Origin: a virus | Strand: one strand, 5' to 3' | DNA length: 64,000 nt | Virus record (IMG/VR): IMGVR_UViG_3300028610_002494 | Coordinates: 32,001 to 96,000 of that record | Shown here: positions 12,511 to 56,281 of the stretch, in pieces | Layout: each line of letters opens with the position of its first letter | Numbering within the stretch: position 1 is the stretch's first letter | Notes under the pieces: model-generated | Told to the model about the DNA's origin: nothing | The model's input: the letters and a program-made list of their open reading frames with translations, nothing else | Database searches by the model: none | Made by a program: the position numbers and the translations under genes

Positions 12511-12552
12511 TTTTATTGTAAGTGTGTTTAGGTTTCCTGAGCACCAATAAAA
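12511..12552 (+). repeat. Bulged-hairpin repeat A, copy 1
   Basis: TTTTATTG-TAAGT-GTGTTTAGG-TTT-CCTGAGCAC-CAATAAAA. Confidence 0.95.
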
Positions 12553-13020
12553 ATTGAATTAAAGAAAAAAAGGTTAAAAAATGAAAGAAATAGTAAAAGT
12601 ATTTGCTGAAGAAATGGAAAAAATATTAGATGAAAAGTTTGAAAAATATCAAGACAGTTGGAAAGATGAAGACTTAGATTCACTTGTGAGATATTTAAAT
12701 GAACAAGTCCGAAAACTTAATAAACTCTTATTAAAACGAATTATTAATAAAAAAGACCTAAGAAGACTGGTTCATATAGCAAACCAATGTTTAATTCTTT
12801 TCACCAGACTAAATAAATAAATAAATAAATAAATATTTTATTATACAAAAACGGAAAATGGTGATTGATGGTACACAGTAAAGGATGTAGAAAAATTAAC
12901 ATTTTGGAACTCTCTGCATCGTCTGATACATATTTTCTGTTGGTTTTTACAGTTATGTATTATGTGGGATTCAATTATTTGCCGAAATTTTTGTGAATAA
13001 TAGATAAAAAAATAAGAAAA

Positions 13021-13542
13021 ATGGAAAAAATAAAAAAGATAAAATTTGAACTAATTCAAATGGAAAAGAATTATCAAACAAACAAGTCCATTTTCGTGAA
13101 AGACAGAACAATATTTATAGTTGGAAGATCAAATAAGTTAGGTAAAAAAATATTTTTCGTAAATGATTTTTATCCAAGGTTTTATGTAGAAAAAGGAGAA
13201 AATATAGATTTCATCATTGAAGAACATAAAGATAAAATAAAAGAAATTAAAACTAAAGAAGATGGTGAAGAATATAACTACAAAAATCTTGGAGGAAAAG
13301 AAGAACTTATTACAATTTACATTTATAAAACTTCAGATATTGAGATAAGAGATTTGTTTAGCAAAACATATCAAGCAAATATTAAATTTACTGAAGTTTT
13401 TAAAAGGGAAAAACTCATAAAAGATAATTTTTATGTTCCAGAATACGTTTTTGAAATGAAAACAAGAACTTTCAAAATATATGGAATAGAATACATAATG
13501 ATAAAAGAAAATGAGATTGATGGAGGAGAATTGATATTTTAA
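13021..13542 (+). CDS. Stand-alone family B DNA polymerase N-terminal domain
   Basis: IFIVGR...VNDFYPRFYV and IRDLFSKTYQANIKF match PolB NTD motifs (F.PYFY; T.EADI.F); the PolB at 28024 lacks this domain. Confidence 0.7.
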   Translation: MEKIKKIKFELIQMEKNYQTNKSIFVKDRTIFIVGRSNKLGKKIFFVNDFYPRFYVEKGENIDFIIEEHKDKIKEIKTKEDGEEYNYKNLGGKEELITIYIYKTSDIEIRDLFSKTYQANIKFTEVFKREKLIKDNFYVPEYVFEMKTRTFKIYGIEYIMIKENEIDGGELIF

Positions 13543-13907
13543 AAATATACATCTCAGGTGCTGTAGAAGACTCAGAAATAATAAATGAATTAGCAAGATA
13601 TTTTGAAAAATGTAAATGTAAAATAACTCGAAAATGGTGGCACTTTACTACTGAAGATATAATGAGATATCCATTATATATAGAAGAAGATATTAAAGCA
13701 ATCAGAAAATGTGACTTATTTATAATGTATAATACCAATAAAAAAACAAGTGGTAAATTTATAGAACTTGGCATGGCTATTATATTGAATAAACCTATTT
13801 TAATTTATGGAAAAGACATAACAAGTATGTTTAAATCAAGAACACAATATTGTGGAGAATTTAATATTCAAAAAGAGGAGAAAAGATGGAAACTAAAAAA
13901 GAATTAA
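13536..13907 (+). CDS. Nucleoside 2-deoxyribosyltransferase / N-glycosidase-like protein (extended upstream, non-canonical start)
   Basis: LKIYISGA...EDIKAIRKCD...SGKFIELGMAIILNKP; frame open back to TGA at 13518; GGAGG at 13522. Confidence 0.75.
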   Translation: MLKIYISGAVEDSEIINELARYFEKCKCKITRKWWHFTTEDIMRYPLYIEEDIKAIRKCDLFIMYNTNKKTSGKFIELGMAIILNKPILIYGKDITSMFKSRTQYCGEFNIQKEEKRWKLKKN

Positions 13908-14362
13908 GTGTTAAAGATATAGTTAAAAAATTCATAGATGATGAAAAAACTGCTTTCTTTCAACTCATTTATGATAGTATTACACGTGCATCTTCAACAA
14001 AAAGACCAGCAAGAGCAACTATAAGATTGCCAAAATATATTTGTGATACAGACACAAGGGATTTAAGAAAATGGGAAATTATTTGTGTTGCTATTCCAAA
14101 AGAGAAAGTAATGAAACTTTTAGAGGAATAAAATTATGAGATGGAAAATACAAATCATTAATTTAGGAAGTAAAAAGAAAAGAAAGATTAAAGACCTAAA
14201 AGACTATATATATGAAATCGCAGCAAAAATACAGATTTTTGTTGTTGAATTAGCAGAAGAAGATGAAACAATACCACTAACAAAACAAGAAAAATTAAAA
14301 AGAACTGGTGATTTCCTTTTAAAATTACAAAAAGAAATATTAGAATTTAGGAGAAATAAATA

Positions 14363-15022
14363 TTGTCGTTAATGGATTTTATTGGAAATAAAAAACCATT
14401 GGAAGAATTTATCAAATCTAATAAAGAAGATATTAAATTCAAGAAAATTAAATTTGAAGATATAATCTTTAGTGCTTTCGTTCATTTAAAATGTATGAAT
14501 TGTGGAATGTATAAAAGAAATTATCACTGTTTAGCAACTCCAAGATGGAAAAAATCTAAAGAAAACTTATCAAAATATAATAATTATTACTTAGTTTACA
14601 TACAATTTGATAATAAACCAAGAATAAAGGATTATTTCAAGAAAAGAGAAGTGTTTAGAGCACAAGGAAGTAAAGGAATGAATGATTGGTTAATTTATAG
14701 GAATGCTTGTGGTGCAAATCAAGCAATCATAGTTAGTAAATTAAGAAAATTCTTGATAAATGTTAAAACACACTATTCTAAAGAAAAATTAAAACTTTTT
14801 GGTGCAGGTGGTGGATGTCGTGGTTGTAGAGTTTGTGGGTTGGTTAAACCACAAATGATTAAAGAACCAAGAGAACCATGTAAAAAACCAAACAAGACTT
14901 TTGGAGCACCTGAAAGTATCGGAATAGACGTATATGCAACTTTAAAGAGAAATAAAATAGAATATGATGTCATACCAAAAAATAAATTAATAACAGTAGG
15001 GTTGATATGTCAAAAACAATAA
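14363..15022 (+). CDS. DUF2284-like Cys-rich metal-binding protein
   Basis: CMNCGMY...C, GGCRGCRVC...C...APESIGIDVY. Confidence 0.7.
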   Translation: MSLMDFIGNKKPLEEFIKSNKEDIKFKKIKFEDIIFSAFVHLKCMNCGMYKRNYHCLATPRWKKSKENLSKYNNYYLVYIQFDNKPRIKDYFKKREVFRAQGSKGMNDWLIYRNACGANQAIIVSKLRKFLINVKTHYSKEKLKLFGAGGGCRGCRVCGLVKPQMIKEPREPCKKPNKTFGAPESIGIDVYATLKRNKIEYDVIPKNKLITVGLICQKQ

Positions 15023-15451
15023 ATTGTAATCTAAATTGTCCAGCTTGTCATACAAACATAACTAAGATGAAAGAACATCATTTAAATGAAGATTTAGCTG
15101 TATTTAGATGTTTTTATTGTGGATATACTCAAACTATTTCAAATAATGGAGAATTTGAACCACAAGAAGAATTGAATATATATTATAATGAATATATAAA
15201 AAAAGAAATTATGAAGTGAAAAAAGAAAATGGCATGGAAATTAAGAACTTTTAAATGTAAAATTAAAAATAGAGACTATATCTCTGAGATGTTTAAGATA
15301 AATAAAAGAACTTATAATTACACAACAACCTTAGATGGTAAAGTTATTGCTCATGAAGAAAATCTCGAAATGGAGACAGCAGTTATACTTGAAGATCACA
15401 TTAAAGAAATAATTAAAAAAGAAAAAAGAATTTATCAAATGGAAAATTAAA

Positions 15452-16066
15452 ATGAGTCTTGAAAAATTTATAGGTATAAAAAGAGTAATAGATAACACAA
15501 TACCATCAGTTTTTATACATATTTTAGGTGGTCATAGTACTGGAAAGTCTGGAATAGTTGGAAGAATAAAACAAAAATATGGTGCTAAAATTATGGCACT
15601 TGGTAAGTATTCAAGAAGTAGAACAACAAAAGGACTGCTAACTGGTGGAATGGATGGAATACAGATGACCAACAAAGAACGATTTAAATACATTAAAAGA
15701 CATTTTCTTTCAAATAAACAAGTGTTATTGTGTGAAGGAATGATGGTTATTTATTATGATTCTTTTTTAAGCAAATACTATGAACTACAGAAAATAAAAC
15801 ACAGAACTGTTTATGTAATATTACTACAAACTGATATTGAAACAATGCGAAAAAGAATATCTAAAAGAAGTAAAGGAAAAGAACATAGTGAAAAAAGAGA
15901 AAGAAATTTAAGATCAAAAGCAAGTTGTTCTGAATCAACTTATAATAGACTTGAAGAAAATAGTACATTTATTAAAACTAAATTCGATACATCAGATTCT
16001 AAGATTTTTGATAATATAGTTATATATATATCTGAAATTATTGACAAAACACTAAAAAAGGAATAA
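15452..16066 (+). CDS. P-loop nucleotide/DNA-base kinase of the type associated with aGPT-PPlase systems
   Basis: GGHSTGKS, LGKY...GGMDGI, LLCEG, RISKRS lid; near the amino acid:DNA transferase gene. Confidence 0.75.
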   Translation: MSLEKFIGIKRVIDNTIPSVFIHILGGHSTGKSGIVGRIKQKYGAKIMALGKYSRSRTTKGLLTGGMDGIQMTNKERFKYIKRHFLSNKQVLLCEGMMVIYYDSFLSKYYELQKIKHRTVYVILLQTDIETMRKRISKRSKGKEHSEKRERNLRSKASCSESTYNRLEENSTFIKTKFDTSDSKIFDNIVIYISEIIDKTLKKE

Positions 16067-16068
16067 AT

Positions 16069-17240: not shown

Positions 17241-17241
17241 A

Positions 17242-18763: not shown

Positions 18764-18776
18764 AAAGAGGTGAAAT

Positions 18777-19016
18777 ATTATAACAAATCATAAAGAAATA
18801 AGATACAAAATCTGTTTTAATTGTAAGGTGTTTATGCCAATTTTCACTTGTGATGCCATTAATCTACAAGAACTAACAAATTTCGAAAGAATACATAATG
18901 AACATATGGTTCAAACTATAAACTACAACGAAATACCTACAAATTATATATTTATTAAAGGCAAAAATGCAAGAGAAAGAACTTTAACACAAATTCAAAA
19001 AATGTTAGAAGTATGA
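18777..19016 (+). CDS. Small Cys/His Zn-binding protein (ATT/ATA start)
   Basis: YKICFNCKVFMPI...HNEH; GAGGTGA RBS at 18767. Confidence 0.6.
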   Translation: MITNHKEIRYKICFNCKVFMPIFTCDAINLQELTNFERIHNEHMVQTINYNEIPTNYIFIKGKNARERTLTQIQKMLEV

Positions 19017-22858: not shown

Positions 22859-22859
22859 A

Positions 22860-25968: not shown

Positions 25969-26424
25969 ATGGAAAAAAATAAAGATTTAATTGATACTTT
26001 AGATCCACTACATTATTACACTAAAAAGGATTTATGTGGAAATTGTAAATATATAAAATCATTTTTATGTGATAAGAGATATGCTGAAGGAATTAACATA
26101 ACCTATTTAGAACAATATCAAATTAAAATATATATATATAAATTTATATCAAATAATTTAAGAAAGATAATTGATTCATTACACGACAAAGAACTATATC
26201 ATCATAGACAAGGTGGATATTTTGCTTTAAAATCAACCAATTTCCATTGTGGTGAATCTTGTGATTGTGATTGTTCTACAGAAAGATGCTGGGAATTTGA
26301 AAGAGTACCAAGTAGAAGACAGCCACATTGCATCAAGTTTTTTGGTTTGGATTTACCTGAAAAATATAAAGAGAACAATATTACATTTATTTTAGGCAAT
26401 TTAGAGTTTGAGAAAATAATATAA
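25969..26424 (+). CDS. Cys-rich protein, possibly a degenerate DUF2284-like paralogue
   Basis: CGNC...C, CGESCDCDC...C...R..CIKFFGLD. Confidence 0.45.
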   Translation: MEKNKDLIDTLDPLHYYTKKDLCGNCKYIKSFLCDKRYAEGINITYLEQYQIKIYIYKFISNNLRKIIDSLHDKELYHHRQGGYFALKSTNFHCGESCDCDCSTERCWEFERVPSRRQPHCIKFFGLDLPEKYKENNITFILGNLEFEKII

Positions 26425-26450
26425 ACAAGGTTTATATAAACAAGGTTTAT
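26421..26450 (+). repeat. Palindromic motif B (ATAAAC-AAG-GTTTAT), tandem x2
   Basis: ATAAACAAGGTTTAT twice; overlaps the stop codon of the upstream ORF. Confidence 0.9.
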
Positions 26451-26462
26451 ATAAAATAAAAT

Positions 26463-26500
26463 AAAGTTAAATAGTAAAATAGTCTTTAAATAATTATAGA
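26463..26500 (+). promoter_or_regulatory. Conserved archaeal-type promoter (motif C)
   Basis: TTAAATA TATA-like box followed by AAATAGTCTTTA (26477-26488). Confidence 0.6.
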
Positions 26501-26515
26501 GGTTAAAAATTAAAT

Positions 26516-27805
26516 ATGAAATATAAAATGAAAGAATTAAGTATTGAAATAACATATAAATGTCCAATGAATTGTATTCATTGTAGCAGTAGAGCAGAAC
26601 TTGAAAATGAGACAATGATACCAACAGAAAAGATTTTAGAAATGATTGGAAGATGTAAAATATACTGTGGAACTGAATGTGTTTCTCTTTCAGGTGGAGA
26701 ACCATTTGAACATCCTGATTTCTGGAAAATATTAAAACACATTAAAGCTCAAGGTTTAAAAAGTATAGTTTATTCTTGTGGAATTGAGATGTCACCTGAT
26801 GGATATTATTGGTGTTTTAGTGATGAAAGAATAAAAAAACTAAAAACCTTATGTGATGTGTTAATAATAAGTTTACATGGAACTGGTGATAAACATAATA
26901 AAATATTAAATATTGGAGATACTGCTTTTTGGAATGTATTATATACAATAATGAAAGCAGTGCGTGAAAGTATTAAAGTTGAAATTCACTTTGTTCCTAT
27001 GTCTTTTAACTATAAAGACATTAAAATTATATATGGAGTCTGTATGGCACTTGGTGTTTCTAAAATGTCAATATTACGATATGTACCACAAGGAAGAGGA
27101 TTAGAAACAAGTAAAACTGAAGGAGAAATAAACCTAAATAAACCACAATTTATCGAACTACAATATGATATGAGATATATAAGAGATTTATCTAAAATCA
27201 CTGGTATGACTGAATTTAGAATTGGTATTCCAGCAGACTTTACATTTTTACTTGATTATCTTGAAGGGAATAATGATGCCAAAAAAACTAAAGCTTGTAC
27301 AGGTGGAAAAACTAAAATACTTGTAAAAGCTGATGGGTTTGTTCAAGTATGTCCTGCTTGGAAAGAACTTGATCACCTTTCAGCAGGAAATATTTATAAA
27401 GAAGATATTGTAGATATATGGAAAAAAGGAAATACTTATTGTAAATTTAGAGAATTTACCTATAAAGATTTAGGAGAACCATGTAAAAATTGTAAACTTG
27501 TTGAAAGTTGTTTAGGTGGTTGTGGAGCTCAAAGAATTTTGAATTCAACCTTTAAAGAAATAAATGGACTAAAAATTGCTCCTGATCCATTATGTTTTTA
27601 TGATGAAATAGAACTTACTAAAAAAGGGTTGATTGAATTAATAGATATATTAGAACTAAAGAAATGGTTAATCAATAAAAAAGAAGAATATGAAGAAATT
27701 GCTGTTAATTCAATGTCAGATTCACGAGCAGTTAATTATATGGCAAGAACAACTACTATTAAAGAAATCCTTAAATATATTGAAGAAATAAAAGAGATTA
27801 ATTAA
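26516..27805 (+). CDS. Radical SAM/SPASM protein
   Basis: CPMNCIHC, SGGEP; SPASM-like CTGG...CP...CKNC...CLGGC. Confidence 0.9.
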   Translation: MKYKMKELSIEITYKCPMNCIHCSSRAELENETMIPTEKILEMIGRCKIYCGTECVSLSGGEPFEHPDFWKILKHIKAQGLKSIVYSCGIEMSPDGYYWCFSDERIKKLKTLCDVLIISLHGTGDKHNKILNIGDTAFWNVLYTIMKAVRESIKVEIHFVPMSFNYKDIKIIYGVCMALGVSKMSILRYVPQGRGLETSKTEGEINLNKPQFIELQYDMRYIRDLSKITGMTEFRIGIPADFTFLLDYLEGNNDAKKTKACTGGKTKILVKADGFVQVCPAWKELDHLSAGNIYKEDIVDIWKKGNTYCKFREFTYKDLGEPCKNCKLVESCLGGCGAQRILNSTFKEINGLKIAPDPLCFYDEIELTKKGLIELIDILELKKWLINKKEEYEEIAVNSMSDSRAVNYMARTTTIKEILKYIEEIKEIN

Positions 27806-30381: not shown

Positions 30382-30383
30382 AT

Positions 30384-33446: not shown

Positions 33447-33477
33447 GTAAAAGAAATGGATAAACAAAAAAAGAAAT

Positions 33478-33513
33478 AATTTTAAATAGTTAAATAGTCT
33501 TTAAATAATTAAG
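33478..33513 (+). promoter_or_regulatory. Conserved promoter (motif C)
   Basis: TTTAAATAGTTAAATAGTCTTTAAATAATTAAG. Confidence 0.6.
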
Positions 33514-33901
33514 AAATAGAAAAAATTAATATATATTATTATATATGGAGTTGTAGTGTTGGAAGTTGATAACTCAGATGAATCCAAAAATAAAAAAACT
33601 CTGTGTGCTGTTAAGAACCCATCAATAAGATCCAATCAGAGTTGGTTCTATAACATATTTTTAGGGAATATATCAAAAAATAAACCAGATCACTCACACA
33701 TAAAAGTAAATTGGATTATGCAACTTAATGAAAATGAAATTAATCTATTAAAAGAAAAAAGTTGTAAAGTAATAGAAATAGAAACTAAAATAAAAAAATC
33801 AATTAAAACAGGTGTGGAGATAAATGAACTCTAAATTAAACCAACTCCATAATTTATTTCTTGTCTCCACATCTGACCTAATTAAGAGTTGAATTAAAAA
33901 A

Positions 33902-35416: not shown

Positions 35417-36070
35417 ATGTCTAAAAAGAAAAAAGTAAGAGTTAGAAAAGAAAAAATTGCACTTACAGAAGAACAAGTTAAAGATTATCTTAAAACTATA
35501 AAAGAAGAAGATAAAAAACATAGTCATAGGAATTATTTGATGGCATTAACTTGGTTCAGCACAGGATTAAGAGTTGGAGAAATGTGTAATTTTATAGTTG
35601 GTTGGATTGAAAAAAGTAATGATAATTATATACACGTGAAACAAAATGAAGCACCATTTGTATTCGCACCAAAATATGGATCTACAAGAAGAATAGCTGT
35701 CCAAAAGGATTTAATTAAAGAACTGAGAAAATATTTAGCTGGAAGAACTAAAGGATATGTATTTAAACCACAATCTAACAATCAAACAAATCCTTATGCT
35801 AAATTTCATGACAAATCTCCAAATCCAATATTTAATAAATATTTCAGAGAAACAAAATCAATTGGAAGAAACCTTGGCACACATACATTTAGAAGAACTT
35901 TTGCTACTCAATTAGCATATAGTAAACCACCAGTTCCATTGCCTAAAATTAGTTATTATCTTGGTCATAGAGACATACAAACAACATTAAATTATCTAAA
36001 GCAGATCACGAACGATGACCATACTGAACTCTTGAATGTAGATTATATTAAAGATATATATAAATATTGA
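35417..36070 (+). CDS. Tyrosine recombinase (catalytic domain only)
   Basis: TGLRVGE (R), PK, HTFRR (HxxR), LGH, TLNY (Y). Confidence 0.9.
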   Translation: MSKKKKVRVRKEKIALTEEQVKDYLKTIKEEDKKHSHRNYLMALTWFSTGLRVGEMCNFIVGWIEKSNDNYIHVKQNEAPFVFAPKYGSTRRIAVQKDLIKELRKYLAGRTKGYVFKPQSNNQTNPYAKFHDKSPNPIFNKYFRETKSIGRNLGTHTFRRTFATQLAYSKPPVPLPKISYYLGHRDIQTTLNYLKQITNDDHTELLNVDYIKDIYKY

Positions 36071-39880: not shown

Positions 39881-40124
39881 AAAAATTAAAGAGGTGATAA
39901 TAATTGGAATCATTAGAAAGAATGATACATAAACAAAATATGGAAGATAAATATAGTGAATATTTATTAGAATTAGATACTTATGTTAGAGGAATTTGCA
40001 GATTAGAAGAAAACACAGAATATTTAGAAAAACTAATTAATAAATGCAGAAAGAAACGTAAGAAATTAAAATACAAAATAATTAAAAAAATAAGTAAAAA
40101 AATTATATAAACAAGGTTTATAAA

Positions 40125-40538
40125 ATGAAAGAACAATTAGATGGATTGACTGTATATAAAAACGCAGGTAATGGATATGATTATATAAAAATTAGTGAAG
40201 GATATCATATTCCTCTACATGATTATATAATACAGAAAAAAATTGGTAGAGAACTAAAACAAACAGAAGTTGTTCATCATATTGATCGTAATACCAAAAA
40301 CAATAATTTAGATAATTTATTTTTATGTGATACTCGAACAAAACACTCAAAAATACACACCAGCTTAAGGAGATTGTTTCTAAATAAAATATTTAAAGTA
40401 TTATTTGATAATAATATACTTTATTTTGATTGTAAACACGGAAAATACAAAATAAATGATATAAAATTACTTGAATTAAAAAATATATTAGATAAAAATG
40501 AAGAATTAAAAAATATTACCTTTATTCATGAAAGGTAA
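40125..40538 (+). CDS. HNH endonuclease
   Basis: VVHHIDRNTKNNNLDNL...H..IH. Confidence 0.85.
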   Translation: MKEQLDGLTVYKNAGNGYDYIKISEGYHIPLHDYIIQKKIGRELKQTEVVHHIDRNTKNNNLDNLFLCDTRTKHSKIHTSLRRLFLNKIFKVLFDNNILYFDCKHGKYKINDIKLLELKNILDKNEELKNITFIHER

Positions 40539-41431: not shown

Positions 41432-41605
41432 ATGACCAAAAATAAAAAAGTAATTATCTGGTGTGGTGGTGAATATACCTTAAAAGAAGGAGAAACTATT
41501 GACAGTGTTATGAAGGATTACAATGAAGAAGTTTTTGATTTAGAACTTGATTACACAAAAATTACTGATTTGGAAGGAAATACCCTAAAAGAAGAAAAAA
41601 TATAA
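41432..41605 (+). CDS. 57-aa protein, paralogue of the C-terminal half of 55527-55919
   Basis: VIIW...EGETID...KITDLEG..LKE shared with that ORF. Confidence 0.7.
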   Translation: MTKNKKVIIWCGGEYTLKEGETIDSVMKDYNEEVFDLELDYTKITDLEGNTLKEEKI

Positions 41606-41812
41606 ACAAAGTTTATAAAAATTAAAATTAAAGAGGTGAAAAAATGGAGAATGGAGATTTGAAGATACAATATAAAGTAGAACAGAGTATAGATTCTGTA
41701 TTAGATAAAAAAATAGAAATTTTATTAAGATCTCTTGGATATAAATGGACAGGCAGTGGTATTTCTGTTCATGAAAACATAAGAGATATACAATTCATTA
41801 AAGAAAATTAAA

Positions 41813-41853
41813 TTTTTTTGTAAGTGTGCCAGACTTCCTGAGCACCAAAAAAA
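41813..41853 (+). repeat. Bulged-hairpin repeat A, copy 2
   Basis: TTTTTTTG-TAAGT-GTGCCAGACTTCCTGAGCAC-CAAAAAAA. Confidence 0.9.
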
Positions 41854-42106
41854 TAAAACTAAAAGAGGTTAAAAAGATGAACTTAAAAAGAGAAATAATC
41901 TGTGAATATCTTATAATGTTTGGATGTATTATTATAATCGGACTATATATAGGTGGACTCATAACAACAGCTGATTTCTATGTTTCAAATTTCTTAGATT
42001 CAACAATAATTATGATTCTTACAATTATAATTTTTATGTTGGTATTTGAAAGACATTCACATAGTCTTAAATTATTAGCAGAAAAAGAAATAAAATAATA
42101 ATTATT

Positions 42107-42147
42107 TTTTTTTGTAAGTGTGCTGGATTTCCCAAGCACCAAAAAAA
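42107..42147 (+). repeat. Bulged-hairpin repeat A, copy 3
   Basis: TTTTTTTG-TAAGT-GTGCTGGATTTCCCAAGCAC-CAAAAAAA. Confidence 0.9.
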
Positions 42148-42479
42148 TTAAATTAAAAGAGGTTTAAAATGACTGAATGTGAAAAAAGACTTGAAATCGT
42201 GAAAAAATGTTTTACTTATATTATATTACTTGTTTGTAGTGCTTTCCTTCTAACAGGAACTATATTATTTATCATACAATGGTATTACTATATTCCAAGT
42301 GATGCTATAACAGATATAATGATTATGATAGTTATTACATGTGTTATTTATACAATGATTCCAACCATATGTTGGGTGATTTGGTATGTAAATGTATATT
42401 CCAAAATGTATATTCCTGTTAAAAAAAGCAAATATACAGAAATGAAAAAGAAAATAAAAGAAATTGAAAAATAATATAT

Positions 42480-42521
42480 TTTTTTTGTAAGTGTGTTTAG
42501 GTTTCCTGAGCACCAATAAAA
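42480..42521 (+). repeat. Bulged-hairpin repeat A, copy 4
   Basis: TTTTTTTG-TAAGT-GTGTTTAGGTTTCCTGAGCAC-CAATAAAA. Confidence 0.95.
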
Positions 42522-43158
42522 ATAAAGAAAAGAGTTGATAATAAAATATGGGAAAATTACTGGAAAGATTTATTGATTTCTTTCATTATACACCAATTAA
42601 AGACGGTATTAGACAATCCTCTAAAAATATAGAAAGGAATGAATTAAATATAGAATACACAAATAAAGAAATAAAATCAACTGAACGACAATTATTTTAC
42701 TTAAACAGTCTGAAAAACCACTTACTGGCAGAAATTGATAAACTAAATGAGTGGAAAAAAGTTCTTAGTGATAAATTAGAAGACGAAAATAAAGAAAGAA
42801 TAGTAGAAAAAAGTTTATTGTAAAAAAATTATATCCTGAATACAAAAAATATAAACAAGGTTTATAAAAATGAGTAAAAAAGAAAATAGATTTATAAAAA
42901 TGAGTAAAAAAGAAAATAAAAAAGAAAAAAAAGAAAGATTTTTTTTTAATTTAGAAAATTTAGAAATAGGAGATAATATATCAATGGAACCACTTAAAGT
43001 TGGAAGAATTTCTATTCCTATTCCAGAAGAAAATTTAGAACCACATTTTACTGAATTCGATAAAATTAAGGATGATTTTATTGATGATTTTTTATGGAAA
43101 AATTTAACAAATTCAAATAATAAAAAGGAAAAATAAATATAAACAAGGTTTATAAAAA

Positions 43159-47380: not shown

Positions 47381-47597
47381 AATTAAATCAAAAAACTTAC
47401 CTGAAGAATGAAAAAATGTGAAAAATAATGGAAGGCATAAGAAAACCAAGAATAAATAATAAATTAAGGGATGTAATGATAACACTTAATAAACTTAATA
47501 AAGAAGGAACAATTAATAGTTTAAGTGTAATTCCAAGTGGTATAAATGCTTGTGCTAATTATGATTATATTTCGTTTAAAATACCAAAAAATAATAT

Positions 47598-47627
47598 ATA
47601 AACCTTGTTTATATAAACCTTGTTTAT
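47598..47627 (-). repeat. Palindromic motif B, tandem x2 (inverted orientation)
   Basis: ATAAACCTTGTTTAT twice. Confidence 0.9.
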
Positions 47628-48022
47628 ACAATCCTATTATAATAAAAATATTTATATTTAAAAGTAGTTATTAAATAATTAAGGAAAAATAGTTAAATTA
47701 AAATATAAATAGAGTTGAAAAAATGTTTGCAATAGAACATGAAACAGATTGGATAGAAGGAGAATGTATTTCTATAAGTTTAAAAGAAGAAGAAACATTT
47801 CTTGGTAATCATAATGAAGATTTTAAATGGATCGCAGAAAAAACACTTCATTATGGTGGTGATACTATTGATAAAACATATTATAGAATCACAAAGAATG
47901 GAATATATATTAAGTTCTTCAGAAAAGAAGATGAAGGAATATATGGTATCCATTTTGTTCCACACGATAATATAATATTATTTGAAGTATATGAAAAAAA
48001 GAATAACTAAAAAAATGATAAA

Positions 48023-48919: not shown

Positions 48920-48930
48920 AAGGTATAAAA

Positions 48931-50724
48931 ATGAGTAAAAGATTAAGAAAATATATAATAACATCTAAAGAAGAAGAAAAATTAATAAAAAGGGCACTGA
49001 AAAAAAGAGAAGAAAAAATAATTGATTATTATTCACAACAAAAAGAAAATGAAGATTTAAACGAAATAGAAGATGATATTTTAGCTTATTTTGATGTTGA
49101 TGATGAATGGTATCATTGTAAAGGATATAATTATTATGGTGAAACAGAAGGATTATTCTTGAATTCTTGGAAATTATTAGTTGATAGTTATTTAAAATCT
49201 GATTTAATAGAAGATTTTCTTTATATCCTTGAAGATCTTTCAGTTGGTATAATTTGTGGATGGACTAAAGAAACAAAAAAATTTGATGAAATAATAAAAA
49301 AAATAAACAAGTATTCTATAGAAGTTCATAATATTGATATTAATGAATGTTTAGAAGAAATTGGTAAAACAAAAAGAAAACAATATAAAATAGATAAAAA
49401 GAACTATGATGAAAGAAAAGAAGAACAAAGAAAACATGAAGAAAAAATACTAAAAGAATCAGAAATTGATTTTAGTAAGTTTGATAAAAAAGACTTTGAA
49501 TTGTGGAACAAAATAAAAAAAAGATTACATCCTTCTAATTATTTAAGACTAAATGAAGAAGTTTATAGAAAAAAAACCAATAAAGAAATACAGGAAATAT
49601 TTAACATAATCAAAGAAAATGAATTAAAAAATGACAATAAATCAAAAGAACAAGTTTTAAAAGAAAAAAATTATTGGAAATTAGATGTATATGATTTAGA
49701 AAGATATAATGGGATTTCTTTACAACAATTAACTAAAATTGAGATTAGTTTTTTAACATTTAATGGAATTATATTATGGAAAGATGTATTATTATTCTTA
49801 AAAGATGAAATTGATGCATCGGATGGATTTCTTGACGATGAATTTCATACAGGTGGTTATTCTTATTCTCATGTTGGTCAAGAAGGTAATGAATTACAAG
49901 AATTAACATCAATTGGTGTAATTAAACCAAGTCTTGATTATGATTGTAATTTAGGAAATAAACACTATACACATGGATGCAAACATATGTATTATTTTCA
50001 TTTAACAATAGAAGGAAAAAGATTTATTGATTTTATGAATTGGCATAATGAACACTATACTTCAGAAGAAATAAATATCATAAAAAATGAATCATTAAAT
50101 TATTTTTATTATGATCCTGAATTTAAAGAGATATATCAAGAATATCTACAATTAAGAAAAAAAGAAGAATATAAAATTGAAGAAAATGAAGAAATATTAC
50201 AAATAAGTAAAATAAAAAAATTAGGTTATTCTAAAAGTTATCCTAAAGAAAAAATCTATAAATCTGATAACTGGAAAATAAGATCAGAAGAAATTAGAAA
50301 AAGAGATTCACAAATAGACTTATTAAGGTTATTTGATGATGGTATTATAACAAAAAGTGAACCTATTCACCATATATTTCCTATAAAGTTTTTTCCTGAA
50401 ATAGCTTTAGAACCATATAATTTAATAGCATTAGATATATCTCATCATAAAAGTATTTATAAGGATTACAGAAATCCTTTAGATTTATTTAAAAGAATGA
50501 TTGAAATACATAAAATTTGGAGAAATCATAAGAAAAAATATGGGGAAAAAATATTAATGAAAATAATTTCTATTATTTCAAGACAGTATGAAATAACAAC
50601 CAACCTTGAAAAAATAAAAACTAAAAAGAAAAATTATACAAAAGAATTAGGAACACTAACAAAAAAGATTGATGTTCTTGAAAAAAAAACAATAAATAAT
50701 ATTAAGAAAATCTTACCTATATAA
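48931..50724 (+). CDS. Large protein with C-terminal HNH-like nuclease domain
   Basis: YKSDNWK.R..I..RD...IHHIFP...NLIAL...HH. Confidence 0.65.
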   Translation: MSKRLRKYIITSKEEEKLIKRALKKREEKIIDYYSQQKENEDLNEIEDDILAYFDVDDEWYHCKGYNYYGETEGLFLNSWKLLVDSYLKSDLIEDFLYILEDLSVGIICGWTKETKKFDEIIKKINKYSIEVHNIDINECLEEIGKTKRKQYKIDKKNYDERKEEQRKHEEKILKESEIDFSKFDKKDFELWNKIKKRLHPSNYLRLNEEVYRKKTNKEIQEIFNIIKENELKNDNKSKEQVLKEKNYWKLDVYDLERYNGISLQQLTKIEISFLTFNGIILWKDVLLFLKDEIDASDGFLDDEFHTGGYSYSHVGQEGNELQELTSIGVIKPSLDYDCNLGNKHYTHGCKHMYYFHLTIEGKRFIDFMNWHNEHYTSEEINIIKNESLNYFYYDPEFKEIYQEYLQLRKKEEYKIEENEEILQISKIKKLGYSKSYPKEKIYKSDNWKIRSEEIRKRDSQIDLLRLFDDGIITKSEPIHHIFPIKFFPEIALEPYNLIALDISHHKSIYKDYRNPLDLFKRMIEIHKIWRNHKKKYGEKILMKIISIISRQYEITTNLEKIKTKKKNYTKELGTLTKKIDVLEKKTINNIKKILPI

Positions 50725-50750
50725 ACCTTGTTTATATAAACTCTGTTTAT
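50721..50750 (-). repeat. Palindromic motif B, tandem with one variant
   Basis: ATAAACCTTGTTTAT followed by ATAAACTCTGTTTAT. Confidence 0.85.
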
Positions 50751-50790
50751 AATTATCCTTTTAAACCCATAAGATAATATATATTTATCT

Positions 50791-52869: not shown

Positions 52870-52902
52870 AAAAAATTAAATTATATTTTAATACTTCCAA
52901 CC

Positions 52903-53008
52903 TCTAAAACCCAGTTTTAAATTTTTTCTCCTCTCTATAAAATTATTATATTCTTTTCTCTTTACTATTTTGTAGAGAGAACAACTTCTTTTAAAACTGG
53001 GTTTTAGA
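52903..53008. repeat. Nested inverted repeats (19-bp perfect outer, 13-bp inner); candidate origin
   Basis: TCTAAAACCCAGTTTTAAA/TTTAAAACTGGGTTTTAGA; CTCTCTATAAAAT/ATTTTGTAGAGAG. Confidence 0.85.
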
Positions 53009-53384
53009 AACTTCTATTCATATCAAGTGATACCCAAAAAATCAAAAAAATTATTTTTTCCATTATCTGGTGTACATTTAGTATTTTATTTATATTGTTC
53101 TGGTATCTTGTTTCATAATTTAAGTGTTCTAATTGTGTAAACAAAACTAAACAAGGTTTAATTTTTTTAAAAAAAATAATTATTTTTTATGATTATTTTT
53201 TGATAGAAAACCATAGTAGAAGATTTAAGTACATAATAGAACATATAAACATTGCAGACACAATAATTTTTCAAAAGTTGGTGTAAAGCTTGTAAAAAAA
53301 AATGTATGTAAAAAATTAAGAAAAACGACATTTTAAACGATTTTTTATTTTTTTTAGAATATTTATATTTTTAAAGAAATGCAT

Positions 53385-53428
53385 TTCACAAAAGTATATA
53401 TGTATAAATAGTCTTTATAGAATTAAGG
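53385..53428 (+). promoter_or_regulatory. Conserved promoter (motif C)
   Basis: CACAAAAGTATATATGTATAAATAGTCTTTATAGAATTAAG. Confidence 0.65.
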
Positions 53429-53474
53429 AAAAAAAATTTAAAAAATAACCTAAAAAACTAAGGAGTTGGTTTAA

Positions 53475-55031
53475 ATGGGAGAAAGAACAGATTTTGTAAT
53501 GGCACAGGAACTTTTAAAGAGTGTTATTTTTGATCAAGCAGGCAGTGTTATTAAAGCTATTGAAGAACTATTCCAAAATAGTATTGATGCTGGTGCTACT
53601 AAAATAGAAATTATAATAAATAAGGAAGGAATGATATTTTCAGATAATGGAAAAGGAATGAACAAAAAAGAAATTAATACTTATTTTAGACAATTTGGAA
53701 ATTCAGCAAAAGCAGGAGACTCAACCAAAATAGGTAAATATGGAATTGGAAGAGGTCAAGTATTTGCTCAAGGATGGAATAGGTGGAGAACTCAAACTTT
53801 TATGATGAGAACAAATTGTAAACAGAGTTTATCATACAGACTAAAAGAAAGATTAATACATTTAAATGGAATGAGTGTTTATGTCATGTTCTATGAAAAA
53901 ATGGATAATTGGACATATGACAGAACTGTTTCATTAATTAAGGAATATGTTATTCCTAAAAGAATTGAAATAACTATAAATGGATCAAAATTCACTGAGG
54001 AAGATGCTGGAATAACAAGAATTGATGATTATAGTAATGAGTCTTTTGAAGTATTTGAAAGTTGTTTGTATGAAAGACGAATTTTTGCCCAAGCATTATT
54101 TGTAAAGAAGTTTAATACTACAACTAAATACAATATTAATTGTAAAGGAAAAATGAAGTTAAATACCGCAAGAAATGATTTACACGAAGACAGGAAATCA
54201 ACTAAAGAACTTTATGATTTAATTGCAAGAATTGAAAGAGAAGAACTTTTGAAAGCTAAACGATTTGATGCAACAACAGGAAAACAAATTCTTAAATACA
54301 TAAGGAATGGAAAGCTAAACATAATTGATTTTATGGATAAAAAAATAATTGAATTAGCTGATGGAGAATTGGTTTCGATAAAAGATATTAATGGTAAAAA
54401 AGTGATGTTTGGTGAAAAGAATGATACTTCTGATCGAGCAATTCAAGCAGGATATATAGTAGTTAATAACAATTTTAAATGGGTTCTAACTGAATTAAGT
54501 AAACAGAAAAAAGTTGGATATACAAGAGATTATAGAAGTCCTGCTGAAGTAGTTCCAAAAGGTTATCGTAAACAAATAGAAGAAGCAAGACTTTTTAAAA
54601 CTCACGGTAAAAAAGCTTTATTACATTGGTATTTAGCAAAAGAAATGAACAAAAGAATATTTGGAGATGAAAGAGAACTTTCAATTGGTTCTTCTGATAT
54701 TGCAGAAGCTTGGACTGATGGACATTATAATATAACACTAAATGCAAGTATGTTTAAGAAAAGAGACAAACGAGGAGTGGTTGTTATGAATGTTTTTCAT
54801 GTTCTTTGTCATGAGTATGCTCACGAGAATGATGATACAAATGAAACAAGTCATGATGGAAACTTTTACAAACGATACTATGAATTGGTTGAACAAAAGA
54901 AGAGAAGAATTGGTGATTTTGTTGTTTTTGTTGGTCTTAGAGAAATTGAGAGAAATTATAAACAAGATATTGAAGATGATATCTTTAGTGCAAAATTATT
55001 AAAAACTAATAGAAAAAAAAGAAGTGGTTAA
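53475..55031 (+). CDS. GHKL (Hsp90/MORC-like) ATPase fused to a C-terminal zincin HExxH domain
   Basis: ELFQNSIDAGA, DNGKGM, IGKYGIG; HVLCHEYAH...HDGNFY. Confidence 0.85.
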   Translation: MGERTDFVMAQELLKSVIFDQAGSVIKAIEELFQNSIDAGATKIEIIINKEGMIFSDNGKGMNKKEINTYFRQFGNSAKAGDSTKIGKYGIGRGQVFAQGWNRWRTQTFMMRTNCKQSLSYRLKERLIHLNGMSVYVMFYEKMDNWTYDRTVSLIKEYVIPKRIEITINGSKFTEEDAGITRIDDYSNESFEVFESCLYERRIFAQALFVKKFNTTTKYNINCKGKMKLNTARNDLHEDRKSTKELYDLIARIEREELLKAKRFDATTGKQILKYIRNGKLNIIDFMDKKIIELADGELVSIKDINGKKVMFGEKNDTSDRAIQAGYIVVNNNFKWVLTELSKQKKVGYTRDYRSPAEVVPKGYRKQIEEARLFKTHGKKALLHWYLAKEMNKRIFGDERELSIGSSDIAEAWTDGHYNITLNASMFKKRDKRGVVVMNVFHVLCHEYAHENDDTNETSHDGNFYKRYYELVEQKKRRIGDFVVFVGLREIERNYKQDIEDDIFSAKLLKTNRKKRSG

Positions 55032-55267
55032 AAAATGTTATACAAATTATTTATTGATGATATGAGAAATGCTATTTCTCATGCTTATTTAACTCGAAGT
55101 GTTCAAGAGAATATTAAAATAAAGATTAGAGCTATTGAATCTTGTTTTAATACTTGGGTTAATCGATTAAATAAATCTGAGAAAAGAGTATATAAGGAAG
55201 ACATAAATTCTTTCAGAGAGGATTTAAAAGCAATACTAAAAGAAATTTATAAAAACTAATTGATTTA

Positions 55268-55309
55268 TTTTTTTGTAAGTGTGTTTAGGTTTCCTTAACA
55301 CCAATAAAA
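55268..55309 (+). repeat. Bulged-hairpin repeat A, copy 5
   Basis: TTTTTTTG-TAAGT-GTGTTTAGGTTTCCTTAACAC-CAATAAAA. Confidence 0.9.
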
Positions 55310-55526
55310 ATAAAATTACAAAAAGAAGGTAAATAAAAATGAATTTAACAGAAAAAGGAAAAGAACAAACAAAATTAATCTCGAAAATGTTAGCTGATAT
55401 TAGAACCGAATTTATGAAAGCTTTTCTTAATTTTGAAGAAAAGGATATTATCCTAATTCTTGATATAAAATATATGAAACAGAGTTTTATGAGATGGGTA
55501 AATAAAAAATAAGAGGTTAAAAGAGA

Positions 55527-55919
55527 ATGGAAAATATTAGACCAAGAAATGAAATAAGAGCTTTATGTCCACGGTGTGGAGGATCATATAGTGGATACCC
55601 TGCTTTAAGTCGTCGTGATAACAAAAGTAAGATATGTTCTGATTGTGGAAACGAAGAAGCGATATTTGATCTTAAGATGCATCTATGGGATGATGAAAAA
55701 GAAAAGAAAGAATTAATAATAAAAGAAAAGAAGTGGTTAGAAATGTCTAAAAAAAGTGAAGTAATTATATGGGAAGGATTTAAGTGGACAATGGAAGAAG
55801 GAGAAACTGTGGATGATGTTATAGATAAACTTAATGATGGTGCAATAACTTCCTATGCAAACCATTTCATAAAAATTACTGATTTAAATGGAATTGTACT
55901 TAAAGAAATAAATATTTAA
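55527..55919 (+). CDS. Zn-finger fused to a small paralogous domain
   Basis: CPRCG...YPALSRRDN..ICSDCG; second domain begins at an internal MSKK. Confidence 0.7.
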   Translation: MENIRPRNEIRALCPRCGGSYSGYPALSRRDNKSKICSDCGNEEAIFDLKMHLWDDEKEKKELIIKEKKWLEMSKKSEVIIWEGFKWTMEEGETVDDVIDKLNDGAITSYANHFIKITDLNGIVLKEINI

Positions 55920-55923
55920 TTTT

Positions 55924-55964
55924 TTTTATTGTTAGTGTGCCAGATTTCCTGAGCACCAATAAAA
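55924..55964 (+). repeat. Bulged-hairpin repeat A, copy 6
   Basis: TTTTATTG-TTAGT-GTGCCAGATTTCCTGAGCAC-CAATAAAA. Confidence 0.9.
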
Positions 55965-56239
55965 ATAAAGAAAAGAGTTGATTAAAAATGGTTAAAAAAG
56001 AGACTATGGAAAATTATAAAAAAGAACTTTTTGATTTAGCATTACATCTTGAAAATTGGTTAAATGGAATTGTTATTGAATCTTGGGATGCAGAAAATTT
56101 AAGAAATAGAGTAGTTAGTAAGATTCGTCTTTTTAAACAAGATGGACATACTGATGTATTTCATCCTGATATTGATCGTGGACAAGTAGTAGAAAGAATG
56201 AAGGAACAGAATGTTAAATCATAAATATAAAAATAAATT

Positions 56240-56281
56240 TTTTATTGTAAGTGTGTTTAGGTTTCCTGAGCACCAATAAAA
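56240..56281 (+). repeat. Bulged-hairpin repeat A, copy 7
   Basis: Identical to copy 1 over 42 bp. Confidence 0.95.

What the first reader, a model, noticed from the sequence alone, without database searches (positions are those of the whole stretch)
12511..56281. Seven-copy covarying bulged hairpin that separates gene cassettes
Seen: a 41-42 bp element at 12511, 41813, 42107, 42480, 55268, 55924 and 56240, always in the same orientation, just after a stop codon and just before the next RBS. It folds as an outer stem TTTT(A/T)TTG/CAA(T/A)AAAA, a 5-nt bulge T(A/T)AGT, and an inner stem GTG...CAC. Variants preserve pairing: TTTTATTG/CAATAAAA vs TTTTTTTG/CAAAAAAA; G.T swapped for A-T or G-C in the inner stem; three copies carry a bulged A. 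This points to selection on a single-stranded structure. Two clusters of three copies bracket units of 1-2 small ORFs (about 290-660 bp). Inference: an unknown RNA processing or protein-binding motif, or an attC/PeSL-like recombination site for cassette shuffling, possibly served by the tyrosine recombinase at 35417.
Basis: partly seen in the sequence, partly recalled or inferred. Interest (0 to 1): 0.8.

Follow-up and report, generated by a model that had tools for sequence, protein, structure and literature searches.

The report
Bulged intergenic hairpin of Asgard viruses
A roughly 49-base bulged hairpin sits between small accessory genes in a virus of Asgard (Loki-type) archaea and in a few host genomes; its base-pairing is under selection, it matches no catalogued RNA family, and it most likely acts in the messenger RNA while also giving recombination a foothold.

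Summary
An eighth copy lies 5.9 kb upstream of the window in the same 111.8-kb viral genome.

A covariance model found 18 more copies. Three are in about 80%-related viral contigs from marine sediment. Fifteen are in Asgard MAG contigs (Promethearchaeota, one labelled Bathyarchaeia), at 1-4 copies each: 6 of 41 genomes sampled in one genus, 2 of 151 in the phylum.

Across 26 distinct copies the upper stem changes sequence but keeps pairing (covariation 0.215 against 0.107 in shuffles, 0/500). The junction UUG / YWAGU bulge / GUG...CAC / CAAU is nearly invariant. The commonest variant needs two G.U pairs, so it folds well only on the sense strand. No copy lies antisense to the gene it follows.

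Best reading (about 0.5): a protein-recognised RNA element in polycistronic mRNA that marks processing or stabilisation sites. Host RNase III is one candidate enzyme, found in 36 of 41 genomes of the host family. As a repeat it also mediates cassette gain and loss, as PeSLs do in T4-type phages.

It is not an attC site, and I found no link to the recombinase at 35417. There is no Rfam match. The scan had read this stretch before in an overlapping window, and it has noted analogous but unrelated cassette joints in other Asgard genomes.

The parts
12508..12556 (+). Hairpin copy 1 (type 1 inner stem GUGUUUAGG/CCUGAGCAC with two G.U pairs). It lies between the stop codon of ORF 11587-12495 and the start of ORF 12581-12820.
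41810..41857 (+). Hairpin copy 2 (type 2: GUGC-CAG / CUG-A-GCAC with a bulged A). It follows ORF 41644-41811 and precedes ORF 41877-42098.
42104..42151 (+). Hairpin copy 3 (type 2 with UGG/CCA in place of CAG/CUG, two compensated pairs). It precedes ORF 42169-42474.
42477..42525 (+). Hairpin copy 4 (type 1, with one U.U mismatch in the outer stem). It precedes ORF 42548-42823.
55265..55313 (+). Hairpin copy 5 (type 1 variant CCUUAACAC). It follows ORF 55035-55259. It is the left end of the segment missing in the related contig L029.
55921..55968 (+). Hairpin copy 6 (type 2, bulge UUAGU). It lies between ORF 55527-55919 and ORF 55988-56224.
56237..56285 (+). Hairpin copy 7 (type 1). It precedes ORF 56309-56527. 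It is the right end of the segment missing in L029.
55314..56236 (+). Cassette segment (ORFs 55339-55512, 55527-55919 and 55988-56224, plus copy 6) that lies between copies 5 and 7. In L029 it is absent and a single hybrid hairpin stands in its place.
41858..41876 (+). Example of the A-rich spacer with a Shine-Dalgarno motif (AAAAGAGGUU) that belongs to the repeated module. The equivalent stretch follows most copies, and in several host copies it reads AAUUUAAAUAAAAAAGAGGUU.
35417..36070 (+). It was examined and no link to the hairpins was found.

Best explanation
The element is a previously uncatalogued, sense-strand-specific structured module. It is carried by a lineage of viruses of Loki-type Asgard archaea (Promethearchaeota) and by variable, mobile-element-like regions of some host genomes. 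Its layout is: stop codon, U-tract, bulged hairpin, A-rich spacer with SD, next start codon.

Most likely it is transcribed within polycistronic mRNAs and acts as RNA. A protein would recognise the invariant junction (UUG/CAA closing pairs, the 5-nt YWAGU bulge and the GUG/CAC base of the upper stem), while the upper stem matters only as a helix. The proposed job is mRNA punctuation. Cleavage or exonuclease arrest at the hairpin would leave the upstream message with a protective 3' hairpin and the downstream cistron with an open, A-rich SD leader. Adjacent, horizontally acquired small genes would then be expressed independently.

Host RNase III is a concrete candidate enzyme, by analogy with the intercistronic sites of phage T7.

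Because the 50-85-nt module is repeated in direct orientation, it also serves as homology for recombination that deletes, inserts or swaps the genes between copies, as PeSL modules do in T4-type phages.

What is shown: the structure, the covariation, the strand bias, the placement, the distribution, one hairpin-to-hairpin indel, and the presence of host RNase III. What is inferred: transcription through the element, protein binding, cleavage or stabilisation, and the recombination mechanism.
For: 1. Structure under selection. In 26 distinct copies 89.6% of cells pair, against 83.2% in shuffles. The covariation score is 0.215 against 0.107 (0/500 shuffles reach it). Six pairs show double changes in 26 cells. 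Slid-partner controls give 35-54% pairing. Upper stems such as CAG/CUG, UGG/CCA, UGA/UCA, CUC/GAG, UCUA/UAGA and CUCUGG/CCAGAA all keep pairing. Copy 8 carries a paired insertion in the outer stem.
2. Variants coexist. Several upper-stem variants occur in one genome, so the upper stem is read as shape rather than sequence. That argues against a double-stranded DNA operator.
3. Strand specificity. The commonest variant (the four type-1 copies in the window and host copy L281) has two to four G.U pairs. As RNA it folds at -13.5 to -16.7 kcal/mol on the sense strand and -4.4 to -6.9 on the other. Copy 8 (two G.U pairs) gives -17.9 against -7.2. DNA parameters point the same way for copy 7 (-7.2 against -5.8) and copy 8 (-8.9 against -5.1), while the type-2 copy 6 folds about equally on both strands.
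4. Placement. No copy lies antisense to the gene it follows, including copies on the minus strand of mixed-orientation host loci (L158, L289, L305, L307). An upstream ORF ending close by was confirmed for most copies. For L281, L290, L306 and one L289 copy my ORF call found none within 60 nt, and L282:9658 lies inside the 3' end of an ORF. A downstream SD-led start 16-45 nt after the model match was identified for most copies. Three copies have no co-directional downstream cistron. Two sit between convergent genes (L158; L307). One is followed directly by a promoter-like motif (L026). This ties the element to the upstream transcript's 3' side.
5. No gene-family link. No particular protein family flanks the copies, so it is not a gene-specific leader.
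6. Candidate enzyme. RNase III-domain proteins of about 245-260 aa occur in 36 of 41 genomes of the host family, and in none of the four archaeal control genomes.
7. Recombination. L029 lacks the 972 bp between copies 5 and 7 and keeps one hybrid copy. L029 also has a copy between the homologues of ORFs 56309 and 56541, where the window has only a 13-nt spacer.
8. No known family. No Rfam family matches even at E <= 1.
Against: - Transcription through the element, RNA ends and cleavage are therefore untested.
- Every copy begins with a run of 6-9 T. Archaeal RNA polymerase is known to terminate at oligo-T, so part of the transcripts may end before the hairpin is made.
- Type 2 copies have no G.U pairs and fold equally well on both strands. 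Overall the sense strand is the more stable in only 12 of 21 copies.
- The hairpin has 17 bp interrupted by a bulge, which is short for a classical RNase III substrate.
- G010 has three copies but no RNase III hit. That genome may be incomplete.
- A host RNA-processing signal might be expected in core operons too, yet copies are few and sporadic.
Confidence: 0.5

Rival explanations
1. It is a folded single-stranded DNA recombination site. This would be an attC-like but non-integron cassette site, cut and rejoined by an unidentified recombinase, so that hairpin-bounded genes are captured, excised and reordered in Asgard viruses and mobile elements.
For: - The architecture parallels attC: an outer stem, an unpaired spacer, an inner stem with an extra-helical base in some copies, and a variable terminal part (for attC features).
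- The copies form tandem arrays of short, co-oriented ORFs of unknown function.
- One indel has both ends in hairpins, and one junction has gained or lost a hairpin.
- The distribution is sporadic and low-copy, as with clusters of attC sites.
- Integron-like arrays are reported in about 8% of Asgard genomes, most without an integrase (PMC9668308).
- Some host copies lie 17-28 kb from an integrase on the same contig.
Against: - There is no AAC/GTT R-box. The stem base is TTG/CAA.
- The element is 42-49 nt long, shorter than the attC size range as I recall it (not checked in a paper here).
- No integron integrase is present. The viral recombinase scores 29.8 against the 265-bit cut-off and does not co-occur with the hairpin. 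No Y1/HUH transposase was found.
- The sense strand, not the bottom strand, is the better folder.
- The conserved unit runs on through the SD of the next gene, even in different genomes with different downstream genes. A crossover fixed in the 3' arm would not predict that.
- Hairpin variants travel with neither the upstream nor the downstream gene.
- Related contigs vary just as much where they carry no hairpin (L025, L027, L028).
Confidence: 0.15
2. It is a DNA-level regulatory module, an archaeal counterpart of the PeSL. The T-run would terminate the upstream gene, the A-run (a T-run on the other strand) would block antisense transcription, and the hairpin region would bind a regulator or hold a promoter for the next gene. 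On this reading the RNA fold is incidental.
For: - Runs of 6-9 T stand at the 5' side of every copy, and the mirror-image arrangement exists on the other strand. Oligo-T is the known archaeal termination signal.
- Two copies sit between convergent genes.
- The module ends in an SD and a start codon, as PeSLs do.
- The genome has other repeated intergenic motif classes that look like promoters or operators.
Against: - Compensatory changes, G.U-only differences between the two arms, and several upper-stem variants coexisting in one genome are not expected of a double-stranded protein site.
- No TATA-like box lies at a workable distance. The hairpin ends 16-35 nt from the ATG, and an SD lies in between, so a TATA downstream of the hairpin would put the transcription start inside the ORF.
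- The hairpin is not followed by a T-run, so it is not a bacterial-type intrinsic terminator.
Confidence: 0.13
3. It is a selfish miniature mobile element (MITE- or REP-like) with terminal inverted repeats TTTTATTG/CAATAAAA. It spreads between stop and start codons and has no function for the carrier.
For: - One orthologous junction carries the element in L029 and lacks it in the window.
- It is shared by the virus and by unrelated host loci.
- A multi-frame stop motif of the TAATTA type stands upstream of 13 of 26 copies, against 26% of other viral stop regions.
Against: - Copy numbers are very low: 8 in the virus and 1-4 in hosts.
- No copy lies antisense to its neighbouring genes, and no target-site duplication is evident.
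- No Y1 transposase was found in any carrier.
- Purifying selection on pairing, with many compensated variants, implies a function for the fold.
Confidence: 0.08

Closest known systems
PeSL (promoter-early stem-loop) regulatory cassettes of T4-type phages (Arbiol et al. 2010, PMC2839356; Comeau et al. 2014, PMC4122927)
   Same: Both are repeated intergenic modules with a stem-loop and the SD and start codon of the next gene. Both cluster among small genes of unknown function in variable regions of a large virus genome. In both, indels between close relatives end in the modules.
   Different: A PeSL contains a sigma-70 promoter after the stem-loop, and its stem-loop is a terminator. Here no promoter is recognisable, and the hairpin has a U-tract before it and an A-tract after it. 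The hairpin also carries a conserved 5-nt bulge with strong covariation. The host is archaeal, and the same module occurs in host genomes as well.
RNase III processing signals between early genes of phage T7 (R0.3, R0.5, R1, R1.1, R1.3); from my own knowledge, not checked in a paper here
   Same: Both are intercistronic hairpins made of a lower stem, an unpaired interruption and an upper stem. Both lie in polycistronic viral mRNA in one orientation and would be served by a host enzyme. The host family here does encode RNase III.
   Different: There is no sequence relation. Here the interruption is a one-sided 5-nt bulge, and the helix is shorter (8 + 9 bp). Cleavage has not been shown.
Integron attC sites, including the archaeal and Asgard arrays of Ghaly et al. 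2022 (PMC9668308; attC features from PMC2727003)
   Same: Both are imperfect hairpins with unpaired spacers and a variable top. Both follow short, co-oriented ORFs in tandem arrays, have a patchy distribution, and mostly lack a nearby integrase.
   Different: Here there is no AAC/GTT R-box and no IntI. The sense strand is the better folder. The element is shorter. The conserved unit includes the next gene's SD. See Membership tests.
REP/BIME extragenic palindromes of bacteria and their RAYT transposases (from my own knowledge)
   Same: Both are short imperfect palindromes just after stop codons inside operons. REPs are known to stabilise upstream mRNA and to serve as recombination substrates.
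   Different: REPs occur in hundreds of copies, in both orientations, and go with a Y1 transposase. Here there are 1-8 copies in one orientation and no Y1 transposase.

Membership tests
Integron / attC | Integron integrase (IntI, with the IntI-specific extra domain) next to the array | tested here: not met
   The only recombinase in the virus is 217 aa. It scores 29.8 bits on TIGR02249 (cut-off 265) and 66 bits on the XerA model (cut-off 220). It lies 5.7 kb from the nearest copy. With this query (E <= 1e-5) no homologue was found in the hairpin-bearing hosts G002, G010 and G155.
Integron / attC | Conserved R'' and R' boxes (RYYYAAC ... GTTRRRY) at the base of the stem | tested here: not met
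   All 26 copies have ...TTG at the 5' arm and CAA... at the 3' arm. Neither strand shows AAC/GTT.
Integron / attC | The bottom strand folds into the recombinogenic hairpin, with 2-3 extra-helical bases on the R''-L'' arm | tested here: not met
   The sense (top) strand folds better in the commonest variant (RNA -13.5 to -16.7 against -4.4 to -6.9 kcal/mol; DNA -7.2 against -5.8 for copy 7). The single bulged base of type 2 copies is on the 3' arm, and type 1 has none.
Integron / attC | Tandem array of short co-oriented ORFs, each followed by a site | tested here: met
   There are two clusters of three copies in the window, three copies in G010 and two in G201. Singletons also exist.
PeSL cassettes | Stem-loop immediately upstream of a promoter | tested here: not met
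   No promoter is recognisable. Sigma-70-like sites are no more frequent than chance (109 against 129 expected). No TATA-like box lies at a workable distance. Only the L026 copy is followed by the virus's promoter-like motif.
PeSL cassettes | The module ends with the SD and start codon of the downstream gene, and lies among small variable ORFs | tested here: met
   neighbouring ORFs of 55-130 aa gave no family match where scanned
PeSL cassettes | Indels between close relatives are bounded by the modules | tested here: met
   One 972-bp difference between the window and L029 has both ends in copies. Other differences in the same region do not involve copies.
T7-type RNase III processing site | Intercistronic two-stem hairpin with an unpaired interruption | tested here: met
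T7-type RNase III processing site | RNase III available in the host | tested here: met
   PF14622 is found over its cut-off in 36 of 41 genomes of the host family.
T7-type RNase III processing site | Cleavage at the site in vivo or in vitro | not testable with these tools
REP / RAYT | High copy number, both orientations, cognate Y1 (HUH) transposase | tested here: not met
   There are 8 copies in the virus and 1-4 in hosts, all in one orientation. PF01797 was not found in G000, G001, G002, G010 or G155.
Rfam families | Match to any of the 4227 covariance models | tested here: not met
   There are no matches at gathering score over the window, and none at the hairpins at E <= 1 in four loci.
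Bacterial-type intrinsic terminator | GC-rich hairpin followed by a U-run | tested here: not met
   The U-run precedes the hairpin and an A-run follows it. No copy is called by the terminator scan.
K-turn (L7Ae site) and bulge-helix-bulge (splicing endonuclease site) | K-turn: a 3-nt bulge followed by tandem G.A pairs. BHB: 3-nt bulge, 4-bp helix, 3-nt bulge. | tested here: not met
   This was tested by inspection against the consensus as I know it. The strand opposite the bulge reads GCAC-CAA, with no GA before the outer stem. The bulge is 5 nt, and the second bulge is absent (type 1) or 1 nt (type 2).

The most novel reading that the evidence does not exclude
The hairpin is the recombination site of an undescribed cassette system that is not an integron. 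It would be shared by Loki-type Asgard archaea and their viruses, with the sense strand folding and an unknown enzyme cutting at the conserved bulge junction. Small accessory genes would move between virus and host as hairpin-bounded units.
Probability: 0.13. Interest if true: 0.85.

Novelty: new variant of a known kind. Interest (0 to 1): 0.6.

Why it matters
Almost nothing is known about how Asgard archaea and their viruses organise gene expression. These organisms are barely cultivable, so cis-elements have to be found by comparison.

- This element has strong covariation and a sharply defined recognition core, so it can be used directly as bait to find its binding protein or nuclease.
- If host RNase III processes it, that would show a bacterial- or eukaryote-style double-stranded-RNA processing step in the archaeal lineage closest to eukaryotes.
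- It also marks the joints where accessory genes are gained and lost. Some neighbouring genes are shared between virus and host loci, for example one at 69% identity. It is therefore a handle on gene flow between Asgard viruses and their hosts.

Tried and rejected
- **Pattern scans.** Exact-pattern scans of IMG/VR gave only single chance matches.
- **Viral relatives.** The search for related loci with the topoisomerase found no relatives in IMG/VR. The metagenome scan gave the relatives used here.
- **Giant ORF.** I asked whether the 2994-aa terminal ORF could be an N4-like virion RNA polymerase that uses hairpin promoters. It has only a carbohydrate-binding domain.
- **Flanking genes.** No gene family recurs next to the copies.
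- **HTH neighbour.** The 396-aa HTH protein upstream of the recombinase has a wHTH domain with homologues in 33 of 41 host-family genomes, so it does not track the hairpin.
- **Cassette mobility.** I looked for the 341-aa gene that is hairpin-flanked in G201 in other contexts and found no close homologue.
- **Tandem duplication.** ORFs 41877 and 42169 are not detectably related.
- **Rejected by inspection.** K-turn, bulge-helix-bulge, C/D box and an anti-SD role for the UUUCC loop.
- **Earlier notes.** A look-up of the scan's own notes by sequence found no look-alike stretch.

Full report
**What the window is.** The window is bases 32001-96000 of a 111,837-bp IMG/VR virus record. The record has a 144-bp direct terminal repeat and 25% G+C, and essentially all its genes are on the + strand. 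It encodes a family B DNA polymerase, a type IA topoisomerase, a Hel308-like helicase, a thymidine-hypermodification set (ADDT/aGPT-type transferase), a radical SAM enzyme and a small Xer-like recombinase.

The closest topoisomerase relatives (78-81% identity) come from marine-sediment metagenomes, including the LCGC14/LAZR data set. A more distant relative (46%) is labelled Thorarchaeota. Together with the host-side copies described below, this makes the record a virus of Loki-type Asgard archaea (Promethearchaeota). That assignment is an inference from relatives and shared elements, not from a CRISPR match.

**The observation.** All seven copies are present at the stated places and in one orientation. 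Each folds into an 8-bp U/A outer stem, a 5-nt bulge on the 5' side, and an inner stem. The inner stem is either 9 bp with a UUU loop (type 1) or 4 + 3 bp with a bulged A and a 5-nt loop (type 2). Fold energies are 2.4 to 4.5 standard deviations below shuffles.

A covariance model built from the copies found an eighth copy in the same genome, just outside the window (genome 26065-26113). Its outer stem is extended by an insertion on both arms that keeps pairing. Nothing else in the 112 kb matches.

**Relatives.** About 80%-related viral contigs carry homologous copies upstream of the topoisomerase gene: one in L026 and two in L029. A pattern scan of reference genomes, followed by model searches, found further copies in Asgard MAG contigs:

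| Genome or locus | Copies | Notes |
|---|---|---|
| Promethearchaeota MAG JAUVXW01 (G002) | 4, on three contigs | |
| G010 | 3, clustered | |
| G201 | 2 | They flank a single 341-aa gene |
| G155, G193, G199, G210 | 1 each | |
| L158 | 1 | A Promethearchaeia MAG contig |
| G001 | 1 | A contig binned as Bathyarchaeia |

Prevalence is low and patchy: 2 of 151 genomes sampled across the phylum, 3 of 41 in the family and 6 of 41 in the genus. All of these are incomplete MAGs, and only part of the first-look candidates were scored.

One host copy lies beside leuA, leuC and a leuD-sized ORF (the last not scanned against Pfam) and directly upstream of an RmuC-family gene. Other copies lie among hypothetical genes. 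Some are 17-28 kb from an integrase on the same contig, or next to genes with homologues in this virus. So the carriers look like mobile or variable regions.

**Covariation.** In the final alignment of 26 distinct copies, 89.6% of cells form standard pairs, against 83.2% in shuffles. The covariation score is 0.215 against 0.107, and 0 of 500 shuffles reach it. Sliding the partners by 1-3 columns drops pairing to 35-54%. Three adjacent upper-stem pairs each show three or more pair types:

| Pair | Pair types and counts |
|---|---|
| First | CG 10, UA 6, UG 5, GC 1 |
| Second | AU 15, UA 6, GC 2, plus wobbles |
| Third | GC 20, AU 3, CG 2 |

This alignment was fitted to the model, which favours the structure. 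However, the first MAFFT alignment gave the same picture, and each sequence folds into this shape on its own.

Against this variable upper stem, some positions are nearly invariant: the bulge (consensus U-W-A-G-U) and the closing pairs on either side of it (UUG/CAA and GUG/CAC). Several upper-stem variants coexist within the one viral genome. The upper stem must therefore be read as a helix, while the junction is read as sequence. This is what a structure-specific protein site on a single strand looks like.

**Which strand, and RNA or DNA.** The commonest variant (the four type-1 copies in the window and one identical host copy) contains at least two G.U pairs, which become A.C mismatches on the other strand. 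As RNA the sense strand folds at -13.5 to -16.7 kcal/mol, against -4.4 to -6.9 for the antisense. DNA parameters give the same direction for type 1 copy 7 and for copy 8, while type 2 copy 6 folds about equally on both strands. Type 2 copies are symmetric in this respect, so the strand argument rests on type 1 and a few others.

No copy lies antisense to the gene it follows, including on the minus strand of host loci with mixed gene orientation. An upstream ORF ending close by was confirmed for most copies. For L281, L290, L306 and one L289 copy my ORF call found none within 60 nt. Copies are intergenic, with two exceptions: one (L282:9658) has been absorbed into the 3' end of a zinc-ribbon ORF, and one (L158) is overlapped by the end of a convergent gene.

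Most copies are followed, 16-45 nt after the model match, by an SD-led start codon. The A-rich spacer with its SD is itself conserved between copies in different genomes. Three copies have no co-directional downstream gene (L158, L307, L026). This ties the element to the 3' side of the upstream message rather than to the leader of a particular gene. No protein family recurs next to the copies.

**Mechanism.** The simplest account of a sense-strand fold placed between cistrons is a cis-acting RNA element in polycistronic mRNA, recognised at its bulge junction. I propose mRNA punctuation: cleavage or exonuclease arrest at the hairpin. That would stabilise the upstream cistron with a 3' hairpin and leave the downstream cistron with an open A-rich SD leader.

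A candidate enzyme exists. RNase III-domain proteins of bacterial size are found in 36 of 41 genomes of the host family, although none of the four archaeal control genomes has one. This is a feasibility argument, not evidence of cleavage.

The 6-9-nt T-run at the 5' arm is a caveat. Archaeal RNA polymerase terminates at oligo-T, so some transcripts may never include the hairpin.

**Recombination.** Relative to the window, L029 lacks exactly the stretch between copies 5 and 7. That stretch holds three ORFs and copy 6, and the start-to-start distance is 972 bp. L029 keeps one copy. Its left flank matches that of copy 5, and its right flank and downstream gene match those of copy 7.

L029 also has a copy between the homologues of ORFs 56309 and 56541, where the window has a 13-nt spacer. 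Copies 4 and 5 look like hybrids, with the 5' arm of one outer-stem variant and the 3' arm of the other.

So the copies do act as joints. But the same region is equally variable in relatives that carry no copy (L025, L027, L028). Hairpin variants travel with neither neighbouring gene. The data fit homologous exchange between direct repeats at least as well as site-specific recombination.

**Comparison with known systems.** Integron membership fails on three defining features. There is no IntI. There is no AAC/GTT R-box. The bottom strand is not the preferred folder. Only the array layout is shared.

PeSL modules of T4-type phages are the nearest functional analogue: a stem-loop plus SD and start codon, set among small variable genes, with indels ending in the modules. 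They differ in containing a promoter and a terminator hairpin, neither of which is seen here.

The T7 RNase III sites are the nearest structural and mechanistic analogue for the RNA reading. REP elements differ in copy number, orientation and transposase. Rfam has nothing similar, and the literature searches returned no description of this element.

**Earlier notes of this scan.** The same stretch was read in an overlapping window. Other notes describe analogous but unrelated cassette-joint repeats in other Asgard genomes, and hairpin-plus-SD modules in a bacterium and in a phage-plasmid. A by-sequence look-up found no look-alike of this hairpin elsewhere. One note suggested a small Xer-like integrase with a partner protein. 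I tested that idea here and found no association.

**Verdict.** This is a real, well-supported and uncatalogued structured element. It has a clear recognition core and is shared by an Asgard virus lineage and host mobile regions. Its kind, an intercistronic hairpin module that also mediates modular shuffling, is known from phages and bacteria. Its architecture and host domain are new. The function is inferred, not shown.

Noticed in passing
window 26453-26529, 33468-33544, 53377-53435, 56729-56787, 61867-61925; genome 26726; L026:289-320; L029:1-50 and 935-975: A second repeated intergenic motif, (T)TTAAAT/TATATGTATAAATAGTCTTTA(T/C)AG, stands upstream of several gene blocks and is conserved in relatives. 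It looks like a virus-specific promoter or operator class with a TATA-like part.
   Followed up: partly
window 8420-8473, 26413-26454, 40084-40125, 42846-42886, 47578-47631, 50686-50739; genome 100052-100164: A third motif class consists of single or tandem copies of TATAAACCTTGTTTATA or its complement TATAAACAAGGTTTATA, mostly just after stop codons. At 47602 and at genome 100052 it heads a longer conserved intergenic region of about 110 nt.
   Followed up: no
host genomes, e.g. G002:C29:33569-33898 and G155:C60:2966-3331: RNase III-domain proteins of about 245-260 aa are present in 36 of 41 genomes of this Asgard family. All four archaeal control genomes lack the family.
   Followed up: partly
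window 53475-55031 against L029:1-100: The related contig L029 lacks the 518-aa GHKL-ATPase gene. In L029 the promoter-like motif is joined directly to the homologue of ORF 55035-55259. This indel does not involve hairpins.
   Followed up: partly
genome 102855-111837 (L024:6855-15836), outside the window: A 2994-aa ORF with a sialidase-like carbohydrate-binding domain runs without a stop into the 144-bp terminal repeat. It is probably a giant fibre or adhesin that continues across the genome ends.
   Followed up: partly
window 41432-41605 and 55527-55919; window 41644-41811 and L305:147-320: The 57-aa ORF at 41432 is 43% identical to the C-terminal half of the 130-aa ORF at 55527, which therefore looks like a fusion of a zinc ribbon with this domain. 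The 55-aa ORF at 41644 has a 69% identical homologue next to a hairpin in host genome G201.
   Followed up: partly
32 nt upstream of the 5' arm of the copies, e.g. window 12486-12500: A TAATTA(ATTAA)-type motif, which gives stop codons in several frames, precedes 13 of 26 copies, against 26% of other viral stop regions. The module may bring its own stop signal.
   Followed up: partly
window 12517-12528 and the same place in every copy: The invariant core reads GUAAGU followed by GUGUG or GUGCC. These resemble the spliceosomal 5' splice-site hexamer and the group II intron 5' end. I take this as coincidence, and no intron-like partner was sought.
   Followed up: no
L283:10790-11704 and L282:13622-14539 (host genome G002): Two RmuC-family genes in one host genome each lie just downstream of a hairpin copy. 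One is directly downstream and the other follows a 62-aa ORF.
   Followed up: no
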